Positions 2,209 through 54,930 of a stretch of DNA of 64,000 bases are shown one piece after another; position 1 is the first letter of the stretch, and every line of letters starts with the position of its first letter. Source of the DNA: Eledone cirrhosa. Lineage: Eukaryota. Made by a program: the position numbers and the translations under genes. The notes beneath the pieces were generated by a model. It was not told the DNA's origin, ran no database searches, and saw nothing but the letters and a program-made list of their open reading frames with translations. The stretch is from assembly GCA_964016885.1 (NCBI GenBank), contig OZ024743.1:29822001-29886000 (forward strand). The letters are read 5' to 3'.

Positions 2209-4900
2209 ACAGCTGCATTTATCTTGCTTTATGTTCATACGATTATCACCAAGTCACAACCAGTGACCTCAAGAGACAACAAGGTCCGCCATGTTCAAGA
2301 AAGAACATACATACTTACACATGCATCTTTGGATGTTTAGACTTGTGATGTACTTATATTGACAGAATCTTCCTTAGTATATGGGCAGTTCCCATTAGTA
2401 CTATCTTTTGTATTTCTCCTGTACGCGGGTTTCCTGGGATTTGCGATAACTAATCATTAGACCCCTTAGGTATCATTCCTAGAGCGCCTACAACCACTGG
2501 TATTGTTTTAGTTCTCAATTTCCATATTTTTCCAATTTCTATCTCCAGGTCCTTATACTTGCTCAATTTTTCAAATGTTTTTATAGATACATTCTTGTCT
2601 ATTGGAACGGAATGTCAATTAGCAGGCATACCTTCTTTTTAAAGTCCTTCAGTATTGTATCATGTCTATTTGCATCTATTTTTCGGTCTGTTTGGATGCT
2701 AAAGTTCCACAAGATTGAGATGTGATCTTTTTCAAGTATGGGAGGTGGTTGATGCACCCACCAATTCTTTTGATGGGGCAGGTCAAAATGCTTACACATT
2801 ATCCAATGTATGTATTGTGCAGCTCTCTCATGCCTGTTTAGGTATTCAGCTGGAGCTATAGGACTGCACATTGAAATTATATGGTCAATGGTCTCTGGTT
2901 GTTTTTTACATACACGGCATAATGGGCTGCATCCATTTTTTATTATGTTGGCTTGGTAATTTTTTGTTGGCAGACACTGATATTGTGCTGATATAATCAG
3001 TCCTTCAGTCTCCGATTTCAGTCCAGAGGATGCCAACCACTGATGGGTTAAAGTGTTGTCAACATCAGGATTGTTAGCTCGTTCTGGGTATTTTCCGTAC
3101 AGAGGCTTTTCTTGCCATTTCTTAGCTAGTTTCTGTAGCAGTTCTTTCTTTGCAGTTACTTTTACCTGCTTTGCTTTTTCTGTGTTTTCCATTTCAGCAG
3201 TAAATGGGACTTCTGAAATTTGTAGTCCATTACTGTATCTTTGTGCATCTTTTGTAATGCAGTATGATCTTTTGATGCTTTCGTGTTTCAAAACGAGTTT
3301 GATCATCCAATCATGTGATTACTTTAGATATGTAGATAATCCAATTGTTGCAGTTTTCAACGCAATGTCTAACTGGATTACCCTACGTCCTCCTTCTTTC
3401 CCAGGGAGATATATTCTATCTGTATCTGCCTTAGGGCGATGCATTCTGTGCATGGTTAAGAATTTCCGAATTTTTGTATCGAGCCTACGGATCTCTGTGC
3501 TTGACCAGTTGATGACATTGTAACTGTAGGTTACTACTGGTATGGCAAGCGTTTTTATGACATCGATCCTATTCCTTGCATTCAATTCCGTTCTTAAGAT
3601 TGCACTTACTCTGCGGTAACATTCCTTCCTTATCCTTTCCCTCATTGTCGAGTGCTTGATTCCGTCTCCTTCACAAAAACCTAGATATTTGTAAGTTTCC
3701 TCTTGATCAAGTTCTCTTATCACGTTCCCTCGATCAAGATTAATGTCTGAACTTTTCAGCAGCTTTCCTCTGGTGAACGTTGCTTTGGCGCATTTATCTA
3801 GTCCAAACTCCATTTTAATGTCATCATTGAACTGATCCACAGTGGATAATAGCCCTTGCAATTGTTCATCATTTTTTGCAAATAGTTTCAGGTTATCCAT
3901 GTAGAACAAGTGATTAATGGTTTTGTCATAGACTTTATATCCATGTTTTGTTTCATTGAGCATTTTACCTAATGGTTAAAGTGCGATGCAGAATAAAAGC
4001 GGTGATAAAGAGTCACCCTGAAAAATTCCACAATTAATATTAACTTCTCCAGCTTCCAGTGATTTTGTTTCACTATTCAAAAGGAGTGTCGTTTTCCATG
4101 TCTTCATACTGAATGACAAAAACCTCCTGACAACGGGGGATATTTTGAAAATCTCTAAACATTTTTCAATCCAACTGTGTGGCAAACTATCGAATGCTTT
4201 TTTATAATCTATCCAAGCAATCGATAGATTTTTGTGTCTATTATGACAATCTTCCAGTATAATTCTGTTAACCAGGAGCTGATCCTTACATCCATATGAG
4301 CCTCGTTTACACCCTTTCTGCTCAATGGGAAATAGGTCATTTGTTATCAGGTGGTCATATGTGTATTCAGTTAGGACTGATGTTAAAATTCTATACATTG
4401 TGGTCAAGCAAGTTATCGGTCTCTAATTTTAGGGATTGTTTGTCTCATCATTCTTGGAAGCAGGAATGTAATGTCGTTAACTAACCATGATGGTATCTTT
4501 TCTGGCTCCTTAACTATTTCATTGTAAAGTTGGGCTAACAGCTCATGAGACTCTGTGAAGGCATTTATCTAAAAATTTTGTATTTTGTCTTTTCCTGGGG
4601 ATTTCCATTTGCTGGTTTTTCTTAGAGCCAAGCGCAACTGTTCAACTGTTATATTTTCCCTTATTTGTTCTTCAAGGTGAGCTGTATCTTTCATTTGTCT
4701 GTCTATCCATGGGGCATGTATGTTATGAACTTTTTCTTCGGCCCAGATCTTTTCCCAGAATTCTTGCACTTCCTCCTTGGGTGGTATTGATTTAGCAGTT
4801 ATTGTTGACTTACCAATTTTTCTGTAGTTTCTTTGGTTGTTTTTGAACATATTATTGTCCTTATAGAATCTAGATCGTTTTTCAAAGCGCCTTATACAAG

Positions 4901-4901
<1 letters not shown>
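2209..4901 (-). mobile_element. 5'-truncated R4/Dong-clade non-LTR retrotransposon (RT + CCHC finger + restriction-like endonuclease), frameshifted
   Basis: ORF fragments SPGKDKI, IDYKKAFDS, IFQGDSLSPLLF, HLFYMDNLKL, YKYLG, CRVC..ETIDHI..C, ANRHD..IDI; (TAA)n on both sides. Confidence 0.9.
2599..4901 (-). pseudogene. Disrupted RT-RLE polyprotein (ORF pieces 4569-4901, 3976-4407, 3319-3963, 2599-3306)
   Basis: Colinear RT and RLE motifs split by stops and frameshifts. Confidence 0.9.

Positions 4902-4960
<59 letters not shown>
4902..4960. repeat. (TTA)n microsatellite, probable target site of the Dong-like LINE (other half at about 2190-2208)
   Basis: Directly visible. Confidence 0.95.
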
Positions 4961-4968
<8 letters not shown>

Positions 4969-5612
4969 ATTTTCATCTTTTAATATACTATCTTTCCTAG
5001 CCATAACCTTAATTTTTATTCACCCAAAAACTCAATACAACACTTTACTCTTACATTCCTTTTAAACTTCACTATATCAGATACATTCAGCTATCAGTTT
5101 GACAATCCCTTTCCTCCTAATAGATGTTTATGCTAATTCTACTATTAACAACATTCAAGCATTCCTTTGAAAGGGTCATGACCTCAACTAGAGTGTATTA
5201 CTTTGCATCTTAACACCATATGAAAAAAACAATTTGATTGGTTAGTTCTTCAACTAACTCCAAATTAGGACATGATACTAACATACTACTAATTTTGAAT
5301 AAAATTATTTTGAAAAACTGGTTATATGCATGTAAGTAAATATTCTCTTTATCTGATATTTTGTAACTAACCTTACATAGATCAATAACGGAGTATAGCT
5401 ACAATGTATTATCATCACCTAGAAACGATCGTAAAGCAGTGAAGTATATCTCTAATGACTTGATTTTTGATATAATGACTTATATCATGACTCTGTTTTC
5501 CTTTTAATGTTTTATTCTTTTCCGGGATTTATCTTAACCTACACCATTTTCAACGTATGGATTACATCGAGTTCTTCATGCAGAATAGACCCCACAACTT
5601 ACTGTGGATACC

Positions 5613-6206: not shown

Positions 6207-6322
6207 TCAAACAAACCAAACATTTATTATAATGTTCGGTTTGTTTGTAAACAAACAGCCCGAATTACCCCCTACAGTGTTCGGCAACCATCGTCGCCCT
6301 TTTGTTCAACACTGACAAAGGA

Positions 6323-6365
6323 ACGATGAACTAGTTTCAAGCTTATTAGCTATCGTCAGCATCGT
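6323..6365 (-). ncRNA. Minimal type I hammerhead ribozyme (family R)
   Basis: ACGATG CTGACGA TAGCT-AATA-AGCTT GAAA CTAG TT CATCGT. Confidence 0.8.
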
Positions 6366-6577
6366 ATACCTTCCTGTCAGATGATTGAACGTTTGAAAGT
6401 ATATACTTTCCTTATGCATTTTAACGGCTGAGCAGCCTAATTTGCATATCGAAAATGATAAATGGAAAAGAATGAAATGAAATTTCATTTCTAATTCTTA
6501 GTACGGCTGATACTTAAATGTAAGTATTTATACGTAAACACATATATGTATACATTATAATAAATGTTCAGTAAACC

Positions 6578-6610
<33 letters not shown>

Positions 6611-6732
6611 GTGAGCCTGTATGTATACATATATGTATGTACGTATACATACTTACATTGAAGTATCAGCCGTATCAGAGTGAGAAATGAAATTTCATTC
6701 CATTCTTTTCCATTTATATATATATATATATT

Positions 6733-8378: not shown

Positions 8379-8411
<33 letters not shown>

Positions 8412-8416
<5 letters not shown>

Positions 8417-8633
8417 TTAAGATAACATATAAAAGTTTAAGGAAAGAATCGCTGCTTTCACCCTTAACGGGATCTTCTTTGGATTTTAGTCTGCAAATTT
8501 ATTATTATTACTATATATATATATATATATATATATATTAATTAAGATAACATATAAAAGTTTAAGGAAAGAATCGCTGCTTTCACCCTTAACGGGATCT
8601 TCTTTGGATTTTAGTCTGCAAATTTATTATTAT

Positions 8634-8637
<4 letters not shown>
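8412..8637. repeat. Tandem pair of ~125-bp F4 minis (inverted arm fused to tail), separated by (TA)n
   Basis: 8412-8512 and 8537-8637 are essentially identical. Confidence 0.85.
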
Positions 8638-8699
<62 letters not shown>

Positions 8700-23639: not shown

Positions 23640-24560
23640 AATAATCCTAGATCTATCAAGAACACTATTGTCAATTCTATCCAACAACGTATTTCACGCA
23701 TCTCCGCTAATAAAACTAGTTTTGACGATAAGGCAGAATATTATAATGAAGCTTTAAATAGAGCAGGCTATATAAATAAGATTAAATACATCGACAACAG
23801 TGATAAGGCAAATAACCCTTACTATTAATTATAATTACAATACAAAATCTAACTTAAGTTCTAAAATTAACAGAAGAAATAGAACTAGAAATATTATTTG
23901 GTACTCACCCCCATTATCATTAAGCGCTAAAACACCTTTAGCAAAGCTATTCTTTGAAGCAATAGATAAATGTTTTCCTAAAGCCCATAGATACCACTCA
24001 ATCTTTAGCAGACATAATATAAAACTATCTTACTCCACTCCTATGAATATATAAATAGAATCAATAATAGAAATTTAAATCATAACCAGAATAGCAGTAA
24101 TATCTCTAGCAATATCCAACATAATAGTACCGTTCTGAATAACAACAACTCCGGAAAATGTAACTGTGGAATTAAATTAAACTGTCCTTTACAAAATAAG
24201 TGTTTAGATAAAAACGTGGTCTATAAATGTACAGTCGAAAGTAGTGATATTATATTTAACTATGTAGGTTACTCTACAGACTTTAAAATTCGCTGGAATA
24301 ATCACAAATGCTCTTTCCAAAGATTTGATAAAAAATCTTCAACTTCTCTTTCAAACCTGATATGGAACTTAAAATGCAAAAATATGGACTATTCTTTAAC
24401 TTGGGAAATAATTTCGAAAGCACCCGCATACCGAAACACAGCTTTATCTAGATTTTGCAAATTGTGTGTTGAGGGAATTTGTTTCATACTAAATGTAAGA
24501 ACTCTATTAATATAACGAATTTATTTAGTTCTTGTAGACATCGCCTTAATTCAACATTTA
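23640..24560 (+). pseudogene. Penelope-like element remnant: RT thumb, linker and GIY-YIG endonuclease (probably Naiad-type)
   Basis: QRISRISAN..YNEALNRAGY; NIIWYSPP..FPKAHRYHSIFSRHNIKLSYS; CNC-x5-CPL-x3-C; VVYKC..YVG..FKIRWNNHK..CKLC. Confidence 0.85.
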
Positions 24561-24929: not shown

Positions 24930-27865
24930 ATTTCTTTATTTACCATAAAGGCATAAAAAGAAGGGACAAATACAAAGGGGGAGTTTACATATAATCGAGT
25001 AAAAAGGGTGTAACATGAAAATAATCGAAAATAACCTCAAAAGGGAGGGGACGTGATGGGGGATGCACACACCCCCGAAAAAGTGTGCAATCCTTTGCCC
25101 GGGGAGCACATGGAGAAGGTGCTCCCCTCTCCTTTACTTCTTTACCCACAGGATGGTATACAGAGAAGGCCCATTTACACGAGCCATTCTCGCCACTATC
25201 ACCCACCTTTCATAAAACTGCCTGTGGCCAAGCACCTCTCTCTCCATTCTTATCCTTCTTCCGACGTGATATCGGAAGAAGTAGACCAGACTATGGCCAG
25301 AGAGGAAGTTGCCTGACCTCAGACCTTTCAATCGTGTCCACCAAACAACCTCTTTCAACATGGCTATTACGCACAGAAAAACCGCCTTTGCTTCCTTTGT
25401 GAAGAGGGGAGGCGGTTTGATTGTCATCACGGATTCGGCGGTCAATTTAATCGGTGCCACCCGCAACAGCAGTCGTTCGGCATAGCCCCACAGATCAGCC
25501 ACGCCCGGACATTGCACCAATGCGTGCGCAACGGTTTCTTCGTGACACACGCATCTAGGGCAAATCTTTTTTGAGGGATCCCTGCCCGGGCGCCCGTGTC
25601 TGTAGAGCCTCTCTCGAACGGGTAGAGCCCCCCGGTAGCACTGCCAGGCCAGTGACTTCTGGAAGTTCTCCATTGGTCCTGGGCCGAAAGTCCTACCGAA
25701 CAGGCTGGCCAGTTCGTCTTCTTCCATGTCCAGCGACTCTCCAAGGGTGTCATCGCCCCTGCTAGCCACCAGCCCTCTATAGAATGATGAGGTGGATTCT
25801 CCACCGATGGCCTGGCCCGCTTGCCAGAGAGCCCTGAGCGCCTGAGCACACTCAGTTGGCCAGTCTCCCAGTTTTCCGGATCTTTGCTTGACCCAGGACT
25901 GTAGCTCGGTGAGTGAGACGAGTCTCGGAAAGGCTCGTTTCACGAACGGAGCCCACACCGGTTGACAAGTGAGGAATACCTGTAGGTGCCGTAGCCTTAA
26001 TGCGTGCCTACGCATCATCAACCACGGCATCCCCAGCCCTCCTTTCGAAGGTTGTTGGCAGCAGATGGATCTTCTCACCATAGGAGGGCGCTTCTTCCAA
26101 AGAAATTGGAAGAGCATGCGTTCCATGGTGGTGAGTGTTTCCTTAGGGCAAGGCACGACAATCAGGCGGTAGTAAGTGACGGACGCTATGTAAATGTTCG
26201 CCACCTCTGCCCGGCCATTTAGGGACATCTTACACTTGTCCCATTTCTGGGTTAGTGCAAACACCTTGTTCGTAACCTCGTTCCAGTTCTTTTCCACCTG
26301 GAGGTCCGGTCCAAACCAGACCCCAAGCAACTTTACCGGGTCCTCCGTCCAGTGTCCGACGATACCGTCAGGAGGCATCGGTCTGCCTCTCCACGTTCCC
26401 AGTTGCAGCCCGATGGATTTTTCCCGGTTCAGTTTCGCTCCTGACAACCTTTCGTACTCCTCCAGTAAGGTACCGATCGCCTCGATCTCCGAGTCGGTCG
26501 ATACCATTACTGTTACGTCATCGGCGTAGGCCGACACCGCTTTGCCCAATCCTAGTTCCAGGGGGATACCCTGCAACAACTCCAACTTCCTCAGTAAAGG
26601 CTCGAGAGTCAATACGTACAGAAGGGAGGAGAGAGGGCACCCCTGTCGAATGGATCGCGTGATTTCGGACGGCTTCGAAAGGTAGCCGTTGACCTTGATC
26701 CTAGAACAGATGTGGTTGCTATGTAAGGCAGTGATCCAGCCTCTGAAAACAGGACCGAACCCAGCCGCCGCTAGCACCGCATCCAGGTAACCATGGTCGA
26801 CCCTTTCGAAGGCCTTAGACTGATCCAAGTTGATCAGGGCCCCACCGAAGCCGGGTTTGTTGCCAACCCTCTCTATGATGTATCGCATGAGGTGGAGGTT
26901 ATCGTGAATGGACCTGGATGGGATAGCACATGTCTGCGTATCTCCCACCAGGCCACCCACGACAAGCGCCAACCTCTTTGCTAACACCTTGGCCAAAATC
27001 TTTAACTCTGAGTTTAGCAGGGTTATGGGCCGAAAATTATTTATACTATCTCCCTTGTTCTCGTCCTTCCTCACCAGCGTGACTACGCCCTTGGCTACAG
27101 AACAAGGAATTCTCCGGTTCTGCTGCCAATTGCAGTAGACCGCTTCGAGGAGTTCGGAGAAGAAGACCGGCATTGCTAAATAAAGTTCGTAAGGTATACC
27201 ATCGAGACCTGGAGATTTGCGTCTGCTGCATTGGCTCAGCGCATCTCCGATCTCATCAGCCGAGATTGGTCCCTCGCAGGACTCTGCCTCTTCGTTCGAG
27301 AGACGCGGCAGGCCGTCGAGGTATGGACGAAATCCACGCCCCCGCCCGGACCCTCGCCTCCCCCGAACAATCGGGCAATGTGCCTTTGAAAGGCCTCGCA
27401 CATCTGCTTAGGCTCCCGGATCACCCGTCCATCTTCGTCTTGCAACGACCGGATGGTGGATCGATTTCCACTCTTAGCTTCTGTCACGCGGGCCCAGCCA
27501 ACAGCTTTGGCCCCCTCATTACCTAGAGCACGTATTTTACTTCGAATGACGCAGCCTTCGTGCTTTGCATCGAAAAACTGGTTCAAGGCCGTCCTCGATG
27601 CCAGCACTCTGGCCACATCTTCGCTCTTGATTGCCTCTTCTAATTTACCTGTTAATTCTTTCTCGTTTCTATTCCTATCGGCAGCTAACATCTTGCTATA
27701 TCTTATTGATTCTGTTCTAATCTCTCTTTTGAGAGATGCCCACCATCGGTTGTTAACGATTGCACCCGTCAACCTCTCCTTAACTAATCTGCTAATCCGG
27801 TTTCTGTAAGTCTCTTTTGCCAGTAAAGAAAAATTAAGTTTCCAGTAACCGGGACCCTGCTTATG
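24930..27865 (-). mobile_element. 5'-truncated Tx1/L1-clade LINE (ORF2 from GPGYWKLN to 3' UTR), GC-rich, young
   Basis: KSPGLDG, NFRPITLLN, LDQSKAF, RQGCPLS, YADD, CPRC..ETVAH..C; ends in AATAAAGAAA then (TA)n. Confidence 0.95.
25134..27865 (-). pseudogene. Tx1 ORF2 reverse transcriptase, one apparent frameshift near 27330-27400, APE domain missing
   Basis: ORFs 27236-27772 and 25134-27401 overlap in different frames and join into an L1-type ORF2. Confidence 0.9.
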
Positions 27866-28088
27866 TGTTTTCTCGAAAAAGCGTCGTAATGTGGAGCATA
27901 AAGAGTCAATGTGAAAGAAAAAATAATGTTATTTACAGGCATAGTTCTTGAAATTAAGCAGATCAAAACGTGTTAATATAGCAAGGGTGCTTAGTTGATC
28001 CATGATGCAGGCAAATGGTGAACTGGGGTTTGATATGATTTCCTTTTCTAAAGAGTTAATATGCAGGGGGAAGCAATTCATGCTGGAT

Positions 28089-29290: not shown

Positions 29291-30464
29291 TGTATATATA
29301 ATGTATTTTGCAATACACTTTATGCTTAATTAAAAGCATTTTGAAGACCGCATGCTATCGTTTTAGAGTAGTGACAAACTCACATACTTTATCTCAGCAA
29401 ACAAGGGGAGGTAAGCCGACAAGGCCTTGTTTCGCATTTATTGATGCTTATCAAGGCTAACTACTCCCTCCTGTCTACTGAGGTCGCATCCATATACCTT
29501 TTTGACAATATTCTATTCAAATGTTGCAGATGCAACGGTTTGGCAGTTAAAATATTCCAAAACTCCTATATAGTTGCATCATGTTTACATATTTATTTGT
29601 GTAAGACATTTCAAATGATTTCATCTAGTGGATATTCTGCTATATTTTGTTTAGAAAATTTAAAAAAGGAACAGATTTCAAAGGTATGTGCATCATCGAA
29701 GGAATCCTAGGTAAGAACTAAAAGTAATCACAAAATGAAAGAAGAAACTTGATTCACTATATTAAGGCTTTTTATTAAAAGGGTCACGAATTGGCTTAAG
29801 CTGATCGACCTTATATATCTGCGCAAAACTAGATTGCTGCTTTTTTAATTTAATTAAGGCATATATACATTAATTCTGAAATATAAAATATAAGGTAAAC
29901 CCGAAACAGCTGTTTTGTTTTACTTTTACACACGTTTTCCCTCAATGTTTCTGCATTGGATAATGTTGTCTTGCTTAAATAAATCTAAACACCTCTCAAA
30001 GAAACTCTGCTAAACACTCATGGTGCCATTGAACTCTGTAACCGACGTTTGCCCTCCAAGACATTGGTCGGGCCATAATACTGGCTTCCATACAATTTCT
30101 TCCTCCTGAGTTTTTGTCACAACAAATATCAAAAGAATCACTTGTCCAAGTGTTCGTGTAATGCGTTGGATTATTAATTTCTGTAGCTGTGAAAACTATT
30201 TCTTAACTAAATACCAATGCCTACTTTCATGTCATCTTAGAGGAGTAATTCAAATACAACCAATAATTCAAAACTAATAGAGAGAAGACTGATAAAATTA
30301 AAATTCCTTTGAAATTGATATATTGTTATTAAAACAAACATAAACCACAGCCAATATTAGTCATTAAACAGAGAAATATCTTTTTCTATGTTTAAATAAA
30401 AATAACAGAAAAGAAACGAATCAAACCAAAATAGCAATGATATAGTGTTTACATGAACGGACCT

Positions 30465-30630: not shown

Positions 30631-30987
30631 GGCACATGTCACCAGACGGGCTTACAAACAGTTTCAATCTATTCAGTACATATGCATACTGAAATACTAG
30701 TGTGTATATGAATACACACACGTATACATATGTAGGTGTACCAAGTATTTCAGTATGCATATGTAGATGTACATTTTTAACTTAATTGTTTAAGCGTCAG
30801 TCATACAAAAGTGAGTTACAAACGAAACGAAATTTAATTTCGTTTCGTTATTTGTTTTTATCGTCTCCGCTGAACCGGTGCGTACTCACACTCTATGCAA
30901 ATTAGTCTGCCCACTACTAATTTTCATAGAAAAAGCATATAACGATATGTGCTTTTACAATTCTCCAGAAAGGCCGGTAGATAGGTA

Positions 30988-31032
30988 AATATTGCTGATG
31001 AGTTGTAACAACAACGAAACTAGTTCAATATT
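30988..31032 (+). ncRNA. Minimal type I hammerhead, predicted cut after 31025 (GUU)
   Basis: AATATTG CTGATGA GTTGT-AACA-ACAAC GAAA CTAG TT CAATATT: perfect stems I and II, palindromic stem III. Confidence 0.9.
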
Positions 31033-31454
31033 CCTTGCCTGGCTTTCTGGAGAATAGGGGGAAGGTGTTCCCCCCAAAACCAGTATGACTCTAAAAACCG
31101 GTTTGTCTGTGTGTTTACATACAGAATAGCTGGGCCGCTCACTGTAAAGCGACCAGTGAAAGACTTGGTACACCTACATATGTATACGTGTGTGTATTCA
31201 TATACACACTAGTATTTCAGTATGCATATGTAGATGTACATTTTTAACTTAATTGTTTAAGCGTCAGTCATACAAAAGTGAGTTACAAACGAAACGAAAT
31301 TTAATTTCGTTTCGTTAATTGTTTTTATCGTCTCCGCTGAACCGGTGCGTACTCACACTCTATGCAAATTAGTCTGCCCACTACTAATTTTCATAGAAAA
31401 AGCATATAACGATATGTGCTTTTACAATTCTCCAGAAAGGCCGGTAGATAGGTA

Positions 31455-31499
31455 AATATTGCTGATGAGTTGTAACAACAACGAAACTAGTTCAATATT
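31455..31499 (+). ncRNA. Second identical hammerhead, predicted cut after 31492
   Basis: Identical to 30988-31032, 467 bp downstream. Confidence 0.9.
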
Positions 31500-31791
31500 C
31501 CTTGCCTGGCTTTCTGGAGAATAGGGGGAAGGTGTTCCCCCAAAAACCAGTATGACTCTAAAAACCGGTTTGTCTGTGTGTTTACATACAGAATAGCTGG
31601 GCCGCTCACTGTAAAGCGACCAGTGAAAGACTTGGTACACCTACATATGTATACGTGTGTGTATTCATATACACACTAGTATTTCAGTATGCATATGTAG
31701 ATGTACATTTTTAACTTAATTGTTTAAGCGTCAGTCATACAAAAGTGAGTTACAAACGAAACGAAATTTAATTTCGTTTCGTTATTTGTTT

Positions 31792-31846
<55 letters not shown>

Positions 31847-48529: not shown

Positions 48530-48657
<128 letters not shown>

Positions 48658-48710
48658 GTAAGTATGTGTGTATACGTACATACATATATGTATACAGACG
48701 TACAGTAGCA

Positions 48711-48782
<72 letters not shown>

Positions 48783-48947
48783 TATACATATATACATACA
48801 GGTACACATACATATATGCACGCATCAGTTTAGCGGACGCTTATTATAACGCCGCTTTGTTCGTTTGTCAGCAAACTGAACAGCCTGAATTTATGCCATA
48901 CGGTGTTAAGGCAACCACGTCACCTTTTTGTTCAACACTGACACAGG

Positions 48948-48992
48948 AACGATGTACTAGTTTCAAGCTTGTTAGCTATCATCAGCACTGTT
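48948..48992 (-). ncRNA. Type I hammerhead (family R)
   Basis: AACAGTG CTGATGA TAGCT-AACA-AGCTT GAAA CTAG TA CATCGTT. Confidence 0.75.
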
Positions 48993-49229
48993 TATCCATC
49001 TGCCAGATAGTTGAACGTTCGAAAGTATATACTTTCCTTATGATAGCTAACAAGCTTGAAACTAGTACATCGTTCCTGTGTCAGTGTTGAACAAAGAGGT
49101 GACGTGGTTGCCTTAACACCGTATGGCATAAATTCAGGCTGTTCAGTTTGTTGACAAACGAACAAAGCGGCGTTATAATAAGTGTCCGCTAAACTGATGC
49201 GTGCATATATGTATGTGCACCTGTATGTA

Positions 49230-49339
<110 letters not shown>

Positions 49340-49573
49340 TGCTACTGTACGTCTGTATACATATATGTATGTACGTATACACACATACTTACATTTAGGT
49401 AAGTGCCATACTAAGTATGAGAAATGAAATTTCGTTTTCATTTTTTTCAACTTATGGTTTTCGGTATGCCTGACCGATTTAACTCACTCAATATGCAAAT
49501 TAGGCTGCTCAGCCGTTAATTTTCATAAGGAAAGTATATACTTTCGAACGTTCAACTATCTGGCAGATGGGTA

Positions 49574-49618
49574 AACGGTGCTGATGATAGCTAACAAGCT
49601 TGAAACTAGTACATCGTT
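49574..49618 (+). ncRNA. Type I hammerhead (family R), GUA cleavage triplet
   Basis: AACGGTG CTGATGA TAGCT-AACA-AGCTT GAAA CTAG TA CATCGTT. Confidence 0.85.
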
Positions 49619-49788
49619 CCTGTGTCAGTGTTGAACAAAAAGGTGACGTGGTTGCCTTAACACCGTATGGCATAAATTCAGGCTGTTCAGTTTGTTGACA
49701 AACGAACAGAGCGGCGTTATAATAAGCGTCCTCTAAACTGATGCGTGCATATATGTATGTGTACCTGTATGTATATATGTATATATAC

Positions 49789-49867
<79 letters not shown>

Positions 49868-50070
49868 TGCTACTGTACGTCTGTATACATATATGTATGT
49901 ACGTATACACACATACTTACATTTAAGTAAGTGCCATACTAAGAGTGAGAAATGAAATTTCGTTTTCATTTTTTTCAACTTATATATATATATATATATA
50001 TATACATATATATACATATCATTTTTTTCAACTTATATATATATATATATATATACATATATATACATAC

Positions 50071-53229: not shown

Positions 53230-53766
53230 TTATACTTTAGCATGTTGGTAGAGTACAGATGATTCTTTACTATCTTGAAGGTCTCGCCAGTGTTCATTTA
53301 TCCGTTCCCCTACACTACGAGCTGTCTCACCTATGTACACTATATTTTTGTCTCTACATTGTCCTTCAGTACATCTTATGCTATACACTACATTTCTAGT
53401 TTTACAGTTAATATGGGGGCTTATTTTACAGGTTATACATTTCTTATCTATACATGATGGTCTTTGAAAAGGGTATGTCTTGCTAATAAGTGTTTTTACG
53501 GAGGTACCTGGTCTTTCTACTATCTTAATATTGAGTTTATGTTTATCTAGGGCCCTTCTAAATTTGTAAGCTAATTCACCTCTAGGGGTTGTATCGATGA
53601 ACATTACACTCTGGTATTTATTGCTATCATACCATGAGTTTATTCTATTAGCCTTGTTCCTAGTTCTTTCTATTCTATTCCAAAATTTGCTCCTATACAA
53701 GGGGCAGGTCCCATTTATGTCATTATTTACCATTTTTTCCCATTTGGTTCTGGCTCCTCTATACAC
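53230..53766 (-). pseudogene. Inverted duplicate of the PLE linker/GIY-YIG region
   Basis: 178-aa ORF nearly identical to 54233-54769. Confidence 0.9.
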
Positions 53767-53787
53767 TCTGATTTTATCTCTCTGATA

Positions 53788-54930
53788 ATGTACTCCCGCT
53801 ACGTTGATGATATAAACATCGTAGTGAAGACACCCCCACTAGAGAACATTCAGGAACTAGAGAAAAACACAATGGAAAGCATCCAGCAAATAGCTAACTC
53901 CATCCACCAGAGTATTAGAGTTACTGTAGACTACCCAAGTAAACACCCCAACCATCGATTACCTGTACTAGACACAGAGCTCTGGTTAGATACCATTAAT
54001 AACAAAAACAAATCCTCCATTCCCATTATGCCAAACCCAGGACTTCCAAACATCTGATCCACCGAAACTCGGCCGTTTCGGACCATACCAAAATCAAGAT
54101 ACTGATTGCGGATTTGGTACGGGTGATGAGAAACGTGTCCCGCATGTGCAACCCGAAGAACTAGAGAGACACATACAACACTTCATCCACCGTATGCAGT
54201 TCTCTGGCTAGAATCAGAGAGATAAAATCAGAGTGTATAGAGGAGCCAGAACCAAATGTGAAAAAATGGTAAATAATGACATAAATGGGAGCTGCACCTT
54301 GTATAGGAGCAAATTTTGGAATAGAATAGAAAGAACTAGGAACAAGGCTAATAGAATAAACTCATGGTATGATAGTAATGAATACCAGAGTGTAATGTTC
54401 ATCGATACAACCCCTAGAGGTGAATTAGCTTACAAATCTAGAAGGGCCCTAGATAAACATAAACTCAATATTAAGATAGTAGAAATACCAGGTACCTCCG
54501 TAAAAACACTTATTAGCAAGACATACCCTTTTCAAAGACCATCATGTATAGATAAGAAATGTATAACCTGTAAAATAAGCCCCCATATTAACTGTAAAAC
54601 TAGAAATGTAGTGTATAGCATAAGATGTACTGAAGGACAATGTAGAGACAAAAATATAGTGTACATAGGTGAGACAGCTCGTAGTGTAGGGGAACGGATA
54701 AATGAACACTGGCGAGACCTTCAAGATAGTAAAGAATCATCTGTACTCTACCAACATGCTAAAATATAACACAAGGGTAAATTAGAGAACATAGAAATAA
54801 AAATAGAATCTACACACAGAAAAGACGCAATGTTTAGACAAATCACAAAGGCAATAAACATAAAAGAATTACAACCAAAATTAAATAGAGAATATGAGTG
54901 GAACAGCAACATCACAACTTACAATTAAGG
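53788..54930 (+). pseudogene. PLE RT C-terminus + GIY-YIG endonuclease, 5'-truncated and frameshifted
   Basis: YSRYVDD, RLPVLD, C-x4-CITC, VVYSIRC..YIGETARSVGERINEH..LYQH, continuing past a stop to PKLNREYEW. Confidence 0.92.

What the first reader, a model, noticed from the sequence alone, without database searches (positions are those of the whole stretch)
30677..31790. Young tandem 467-bp hammerhead repeat: candidate retrozyme producing a 467-nt circular RNA
Seen: about 2.24 nearly identical non-coding units, each with a perfect minimal type I hammerhead (stem I AATATTG/CAATATT, palindromic AACTAGTT stem III). Two cuts would release monomer 31026-31492. Known: metazoan non-LTR retrozymes are tandem hammerhead repeats that yield circRNAs and are thought to use PLE machinery; short palindromic stem III favours dimeric folding. 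Inference: the non-integer head-to-tail array is a rolling reverse transcript of a circle. I know of no description of this family.
Basis: partly seen in the sequence, partly recalled or inferred. Interest (0 to 1): 0.9.

Follow-up and report, generated by a model that had tools for sequence, protein, structure and literature searches.

The report
Two-armed hammerhead retrozyme, Penelope footprint
This is one of thousands of young copies of a 467-base non-coding repeat with a hammerhead ribozyme motif that sits in TA microsatellites, mostly as two back-to-back arms ending at two fixed points; it is likely a 'retrozyme' copied by a Penelope-type enzyme, probably from one small RNA circle read round and round, although self-cutting, the circle and the enzyme are untested.

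Summary
Confirmed: 2.25 tandem 467-bp units (30744-31795) with two type I hammerheads. The genome holds 5,212 exact hammerhead cores and at least about 2,300 insertions. Of 67 mapped loci, 47 are two divergent arms; 40 of these pair a 'long' end (unit ~303) with a 'short' end (~232), never long-long or short-short. This is the inverted-copy-plus-tail footprint known for Penelope-like elements (PLEs), and an intact Hydra-type PLE here obeys the same rule. Copies within a locus share one haplotype across both arms, very young arms reach 17.6 near-identical units, hammerhead junctions are precise, and variants fixed in all copies of a locus are enriched for A-to-G (13 of 29, against 11 of 139 single-copy variants). 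This favours twin-primed reverse transcription of one monomeric RNA, probably a circle. Against: some long arrays grew at DNA level, one arm switches haplotype near the cut site, no RNA data exist, and the partner PLE is unidentified. The scan noted this family and look-alikes before on other DNA. A new member of a known kind, with useful mechanistic evidence.

The parts
30677..30746 (-). Short inverted arm: unit positions 207 to 138 (unit position 1 = 31026). It lacks the usual short end (~232) and the TA tract, so this locus is truncated on the left.
   Evidence: Exact reverse complement of 31163-31232; BLAST map
30744..31795 (+). Tandem arm, 2.25 units, from unit 186 to the fixed long end at unit ~303
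30988..31032 (+). Type I hammerhead 1; predicted cut after GUU at 31025; palindromic 2-bp stem III
30960..31055 (+). Long predicted stem that extends hammerhead stem I and would close the monomer
   Evidence: fold z -6.05; stem I pair probabilities 0.62-0.94 in the circular monomer
31026..31492 (+). Predicted cut-to-cut monomer, 467 nt, 38% GC, non-coding, strongly structured as a circle
   Evidence: circular MFE -163 kcal/mol, z -11 against 40 shuffles; no ORF
31254..31259 (+). Short priming site (unit 229-234), used as the outer end of one arm at other loci; repeated at 31721-31726
31260..31328 (+). About 70-nt 'tail' between the two priming sites, with a 13-bp hairpin at 31288-31316
31362..31369 (+). 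ATGCAAAT octamer inside a hairpin block about 80% conserved with the sister family (also 30895-30902); promoter element or RNA protein-binding site, not resolved
31455..31499 (+). Type I hammerhead 2; predicted cut after 31492
31792..31795 (+). Long priming site (unit 300-303), the outer end of this insertion
31791..31846 (.). (TA)n target microsatellite

Best explanation
This is a copy of a young non-coding hammerhead repeat whose insertions end at two fixed points in TA microsatellites, and it is likely a non-autonomous retrozyme inserted by a Penelope-like RT-endonuclease that probably copies one monomeric circular RNA from both cut DNA ends. Proposed cycle: (1) a tandem locus is transcribed (inferred); (2) neighbouring hammerheads fold as a dimer through the palindromic stem III and release a 467-nt monomer, which a host ligase closes (inferred from described retrozymes); (3) ADAR occasionally edits the structured RNA (inferred from the A-to-G excess); (4) a PLE protein makes a staggered cut in (TA)n, and the two 3' ends prime on the same RNA, one at unit ~303 and one at ~232, with a few bases of complementarity (fixed ends, strict long-short pairing and 11-18 bp target duplications are shown; the enzyme is inferred); (5) each reverse transcriptase runs across the junction for 0.1 to over 17 units and the two cDNAs are joined head to head at variable points with short microhomology (architecture shown); (6) some arrays later grow or shrink by DNA recombination (shown for at least one, probable for two more). 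The window copy is such a product with a full long-end arm and a truncated second arm.
For: Ends: 47 of 67 loci two-armed, 40 long+short, 0 long+long, 0 short+short, 7 with one odd end; 6 of the 20 one-armed loci show a 13-30 base inverted piece of the other end. Genome-wide 2,303 long-end/TA junction matches and 766 short-end/TA matches on the forward strand alone, controls 0. An intact Hydra-type PLE (713-aa ORF with RWR, DKT, CxCx5C, no CCHH) has two ends 88 nt apart in (TA)n, and 9 two-armed loci among the 30 each pair a long with a short end. Inverted copies and a one-sided tail are PLE hallmarks (PMC8557442); the tail lies between two RT start sites (PMC11167929). A 17-bp target duplication with 4-5 bases shared with each end is seen at L242, 11-18 bp at L110, L188, L201, L014. 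One template: 2,288 of 2,348 locus-by-diagnostic-column cells concordant; within-locus divergence median 0, between-locus 3.7%; 238 junctions with no insertion and 1 deletion; no pile-up of 5' ends at the cut site (0 of 114 at positions 1-5). In a 7-locus subfamily, arms of 6.9+12.9, 17.6+8.0, 8.8 and 4.7 units are 99.9-100% identical, so long arrays are born long. A-to-G is 13 of 29 locus-fixed variants against 11 of 139 single-copy ones (Fisher 6e-6; 2e-4 with clusters merged).
Against: No RNA evidence. The partner PLE was not found: no ORF-bearing element with this unit as its terminal repeat among 18 loci with related hammerheads or near 60 PLE endonuclease hits; tail lengths differ (this family ~70, sister ~58, Hydra-type 88, Neptune-like ~58 nt). 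A 31-unit array carries repeating blocks of variants (19 distinct of 30 units), and L013 and C1:56.39 Mb show period-2 and period-3 patterns, so DNA-level amplification also makes long arrays. One of 74 loci (C744) switches haplotype within 69 bases after the cut site and its short arm matches the second haplotype, which shows two RNAs can serve one insertion. A-to-G against T-to-C among fixed variants is only 13 to 4 (p 0.03) and 10 to 4 (p 0.11) with clusters merged; absence of 5' G neighbours (0 of 13) is not significant. 12 of 114 5' ends fall at positions 6-30, twice the expectation, though a scan test gives p 0.8. The GUU triplet and 2-bp stem III predict weak cleavage, and 8 of 9 Xenopus dimers did not cleave in vitro (10.64898/2026.07.22.740005).
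Confidence: 0.6

Rival explanations
1. Same PLE-driven twin priming, but the template is an uncleaved multi-unit transcript from homogeneous master arrays; the hammerhead is weak or dispensable, and masters are regenerated by DNA-level amplification.
For: DNA-level block duplications exist. [quoted passage not shown] In the 7-locus subfamily no arm exceeds the 17.6-unit arm, which could be a master. Precise junctions fit this too.
Against: Editing of a multimer would hit units independently and show up as single-copy A-to-G; single-copy variants show none (11 A>G, 15 T>C) while the all-copy class does. Copy-specific variants are not shared by the two arms at the same pass. Hammerhead stems are kept by compensatory changes. 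It needs 8-kb transcripts with 17 uncut ribozymes.
Confidence: 0.2
2. The template is the cut linear monomer; the telomerase-related RT jumps from its 5' end back to a 3' end, usually of the same molecule, giving tandem cDNA without a covalent circle.
For: The C744 arm switches haplotype between the last base before the cut and position 69. Mild excess of 5' ends at positions 6-30. It explains the one-haplotype arrays equally well.
Against: 238 junctions carry no added bases; no run-off peak at position 1; only 1 switch in 74 loci, and a 69-base window would be hit by chance about 15% of the time.
Confidence: 0.15
3. A satellite-like repeat spread and amplified at DNA level from the terminal repeat of a PLE, with no RNA intermediate of its own.
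For: Local DNA amplification is proposed for retrozyme arrays (10.64898/2026.07.22.740005) and is seen here in one array.
Against: Thousands of dispersed insertions with strand-specific fixed 3' ends, variable 5' ends, target duplications and a strand-biased A-to-G excess; no parent PLE carrying the unit was found.
Confidence: 0.03

Closest known systems
Metazoan non-LTR retrozymes (Cervera and de la Pena 2020, PMC7229834: abstract, sections 15 and 17, passages; Li, Clavereau and Pollet 2026, 10.64898/2026.07.22.740005: abstract through discussion)
   Same: Non-coding tandem units with a type I hammerhead, low GC, thousands of dispersed copies, short palindromic helix III as in the axolotl dimer-type ribozymes, co-occurrence with PLEs; both papers propose PLE-made tandem cDNA from a circle.
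   Different: Unit of 467 nt is above the 170-400 nt RNAs of the 2020 paper but inside the 51-972 bp range of the 2026 preprint. Neither text describes inverted second arms, two fixed ends, a tail, (TA)n targeting or editing scars (term searches). Their RNA circles and cleavage were shown; here they are untested. No homologous PLE terminal repeat was found here, unlike 24 of 57 Xenopus families that matched Repbase elements.
Penelope-like elements, Hydra and Neptune clades, and non-autonomous Chlamys such as MRC1 (Craig et al. 2021, PMC8557442: passages, sections 11 and 15, first hits in supplement S1)
   Same: Partial tandems, an inverted 5'-truncated copy, a tail at only one end, (TA)n targets; multicopy head-to-tail non-autonomous forms exist in Chlamydomonas.
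   Different: No ORF; tail about 70 nt rather than 30-40; arms up to 31 units; MRC1-type elements resemble their partner's 3' end, whereas no such partner was found here.
Poseidon element of the green anole (Frangieh et al. 2024, PMC11167929: main text)
   Same: Two internal reverse transcription start sites define the tail; both DNA strands are cut and extended; AT-rich targets; predicted dimer.
   Different: There the start site is not homologous to the cut DNA and uncut linear RNA is the template; here ends share a few bases with the target, each insertion uses both sites once, and the template appears to be re-read.

Membership tests
Metazoan non-LTR retrozyme | Head-to-tail units of a few hundred bases, each with a complete type I hammerhead | tested here: met
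Metazoan non-LTR retrozyme | Non-coding, no LTR, low GC | tested here: met
   no ORF in the circularised unit; GC 38%; 67 locus maps without flanking LTRs
Metazoan non-LTR retrozyme | Many dispersed copies, dimers to multimers | tested here: met
   5,212 exact cores, 2,303 long-end junction matches, arms to 31 units
Metazoan non-LTR retrozyme | Self-cleavage, as monomer or dimer | not testable with these tools
   structure and covariation only; monomeric active fold +0.8 kcal/mol, stem III palindrome duplex -6.6
Metazoan non-LTR retrozyme | Expressed as monomeric linear and circular RNA | tested here: inconclusive
   no RNA holder listed; only indirect genomic signs of an edited, re-read monomer
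PLE-mobilised element | Inverted 5'-truncated copy, tail at one end, two fixed RT start sites | tested here: met
   40 of 47 two-armed loci long+short; same rule in the Hydra-type PLE
PLE-mobilised element | Microsatellite or AT-rich target, with target duplication where readable | tested here: met
   (TA)n at most ends; 11-18 bp duplications at 5 loci
PLE-mobilised element | Sequence shared with the terminal repeat of an autonomous partner | tested here: inconclusive
   none found in the loci held; many PLE families were not sampled
Autonomous PLE | ORF with RT and GIY-YIG endonuclease | tested here: not met

The most novel reading that the evidence does not exclude
These insertions are a genomic record of two reverse transcriptases of one Penelope-type complex rolling around a single ADAR-edited RNA circle at the same time, each started at its own fixed site from one end of a staggered cut, and laying down up to about 25 identical units in one event. 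The PLE inverted repeat and tail would then be the normal way both strands are made, and RNA editing would be a main source of inherited change in the family.
Probability: 0.45. Interest if true: 0.7.

Novelty: new member of a known kind. Interest (0 to 1): 0.5.

Why it matters
That animal retrozymes are copied from circles by PLE enzymes is proposed in the papers read but rests on co-occurrence and terminal-repeat similarity. This family shows the PLE insertion footprint directly on a retrozyme, adds a strict rule (one long and one short end per insertion) that bears on how PLEs make inverted repeats and tails, and offers a 467-nt template with two mapped start sites for an in vitro test of circle against linear templates. 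It and its sister family account for about 40,000 hammerhead motifs in this genome.

Tried and rejected
RNA evidence: no RNA holder listed; four contig sets of unknown kind were laid and show only presence of the repeat in organisms A, B and C. Partner search: endonuclease searches for three PLE families, tblastn over all loci held and 18 loci with related hammerheads found no ORF-bearing element with this unit; of 9 close contacts between a retrozyme and one of two PLE families, 7 run through a shared TA tract and 2 are direct joins, both to the Hydra-type family, too few to name a partner. The idea that the triple A-to-G haplotype is private to one locus was rejected: it stands in 69 copies at 7 loci. 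A pile-up of 5' ends at the cut site was not found. ADAR neighbour preference was not significant. The microRNA matches near the array are TA-repeat artefacts below gathering score. A bacterial promoter scan is not informative here. A Pol III reading of the octamer block was considered and left: runs of five T lie inside the unit (from the sequence; promoter types recalled). Look-up by sequence in earlier findings returned nothing. Literature searches that found no description of this family or of two-armed retrozymes; subscription papers, Dfam and Repbase were not searchable, and supplements of the two retrozyme papers were not seen and may show such structures.

Full report
Observation. The array is real: 30744-31795, period 467, 2.25 units, four differences between neighbouring copies. 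Two type I hammerheads (30988-31032, 31455-31499) have a 7-bp stem I, the CUGAUGA and GAAA core, a 5-bp stem II and a 2-bp stem III within AACUAGUU; the predicted cuts follow GUU at 31025 and 31492 (Rfam HH9 E 4e-6, under gathering). The monomer has no ORF and folds far better than shuffles (z -11). The monomeric active fold is not favourable by itself (+0.8 kcal/mol) while the stem III palindrome can pair between two copies (-6.6), the arrangement described for dimer-acting ribozymes (PMC4209133, passages; PMC7229834, section 15). Stems I and II covary across 10 sequences of this and the sister family (the sequences are related, so the shuffle count is not a probability), and a subfamily swaps one stem II pair.

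The family. The window lies in a 3.0-Gb animal genome; earlier scan notes call it cephalopod, which I did not test. The exact 30-base hammerhead core occurs 5,212 times (control 0). I mapped 67 loci: the 40 best-scoring candidates of 844, and 27 of the 28 loci that hold the first 100 exact cores on contig 1, the 28th being among the 40. Both samples favour loci with a whole hammerhead. Forty-seven loci are two divergent arms joined head to head. Inner ends fall anywhere in the unit, mostly with a few shared bases. Outer ends are fixed: long (unit 298-304) or short (225-236). Forty two-armed loci pair long with short, none pairs like with like, and 7 have one odd end, the window copy among them. 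Six of the 20 one-armed loci show a tiny inverted piece of the other end. Ends abut (TA)n in most cases; genome-wide there are 2,303 long-end/TA matches and 766 short-end/TA matches on one strand (the other strand is inflated by overlaps). Where the target is not pure TA, duplications of 11-18 bp are readable at five loci; at L242 a 17-bp duplication shares 5 bases with the short end and 4 with the long end. This is the geometry of a staggered cut whose two 3' ends each prime on the RNA (inference).

The PLE link. Inverted 5'-truncated copies, a tail on one side and (TA)n targets are described for PLEs (PMC8557442), and the tail lies between two RT start sites in the one PLE studied in vitro (PMC11167929). 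In this genome a young PLE with an intact 713-aa ORF meets the published Hydra-clade motifs, has two ends 88 nt apart, and pairs long with short in 9 two-armed loci among the 30 fetched. A Neptune-like family (clade name from recall of its motifs) has two ends about 58 nt apart. Neither shares sequence with the unit beyond short T-rich or A-rich stretches, and no PLE carrying the unit was found; two direct joins to the Hydra-type family exist. PLE dependence is therefore well supported and the partner is open. A sister retrozyme of 471-477 nt aligns along the whole unit and ends at the homologous two sites; both families together give 40,658 related hammerhead matches (control 23).

What the template was. 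Copies in a locus share one haplotype on both arms: 2,288 of 2,348 cells at 42 diagnostic columns are concordant; divergence is 0 within and 3.7% between loci at the median. All 238 hammerhead junctions are free of added bases, one has a deletion. In a subfamily of 7 loci marked by three clustered A-to-G changes, arms of 6.9+12.9, 17.6+8.0, 8.8 and 4.7 units are essentially identical, so arrays can be long at birth. After dropping indel-prone columns and arm edges, variants present in every copy of a locus are A-to-G in 13 of 29 cases (10 private to a locus, 19 shared by 2-12 loci), while single-copy private variants are A-to-G in 11 of 139. An edit made on one RNA unit and then found in every unit points to a monomer being re-read, which a circle does most simply. 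The lead to test editing came from earlier scan notes; the counts are mine.

Results against. The strand asymmetry alone is modest (13 to 4, p 0.03; 10 to 4, p 0.11 with clusters merged). A 31-unit array shows repeating blocks of variants, and two more arrays show period-2 or period-3 patterns, so DNA recombination also lengthens arrays. One arm (C744) runs about nine units on one haplotype and switches to another within 69 bases after the cut site, and its short arm matches the second haplotype: two RNAs served that insertion, which suits end-to-end jumping on cut monomers as well as switching between circles. Twelve of 114 inner ends lie at positions 6-30, not significant in a scan test. There is no RNA evidence, and predicted retrozymes often fail to cleave in vitro (8 of 9 dimers in 10.64898/2026.07.22.740005).

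Verdict. A new family of the described animal non-LTR retrozymes (class about 90% likely), inserted by PLE-type twin priming. Template: circle 0.6, uncut multimer 0.2, cut monomer with jumps 0.15. The two-armed rule, target duplications and editing scars were not found in the papers read or in eight literature searches, but the inverted-plus-tail footprint itself is known for PLEs. Earlier notes of this scan describe the same family and look-alikes; they are unchecked and are not counted as support.

Noticed in passing
window 48650-49980: Two-armed insertion of the sister retrozyme (471-477 nt unit with an internal TA tract of variable length, same palindromic stem III, GUA triplet); older relatives at window 6239-6700. 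550 candidates in the genome.
   Followed up: partly
L142:3792-5933: Young Hydra-type PLE with intact 713-aa ORF and an 88-nt tail; near its short end the hammerhead-like core reads CAGAAGA...GAAA instead of CTGANGA. The 125-bp tandem at window 8387-8663 is the reverse complement of such an end.
   Followed up: partly
window 53230-54769: Back-to-back arms of a young Neptune-like PLE (29,924 candidates for its endonuclease, 95-97% protein identity among the best 150), two ends about 58 nt apart in (TA)n.
   Followed up: partly
window 22913 (-), 38840 (-), 40273 (+), 62583 (-), and 24018-24515: Type I hammerheads of older PLE families and a Hydra-type endonuclease remnant; 38840 and 40273 form an inverted pair.
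   Followed up: no
window 29401-29468 (-): Degenerate hammerhead with a palindromic stem III and GTC site in the left flank (Rfam HH9, E 0.5), about 100 bases from a TA tract; the flank may be an older element that the insertion cut into.
   Followed up: partly
window 25134-27928 (-): GC-rich non-LTR retrotransposon with a 757-aa RT frame (RVT_1 and zf-RVT) and an upstream frame; further RT fragments at 2599-4979 (-).
   Followed up: no
L240:2265-7306: One arm switches between two subfamily haplotypes just after the hammerhead cut site.
   Followed up: yes
L232-L233 (G000:C1:5738087-5752751): 31-unit arm with repeating blocks of variants, paired with a short long-end arm: DNA-level growth of a retrozyme into a minisatellite.
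   Followed up: yes
L199-L200, L236-L242: The 7-locus subfamily whose three A-to-G changes destroy the octamer has far longer arrays (69 copies in 7 loci) than most loci; youth or changed processivity, not resolved.
   Followed up: partly
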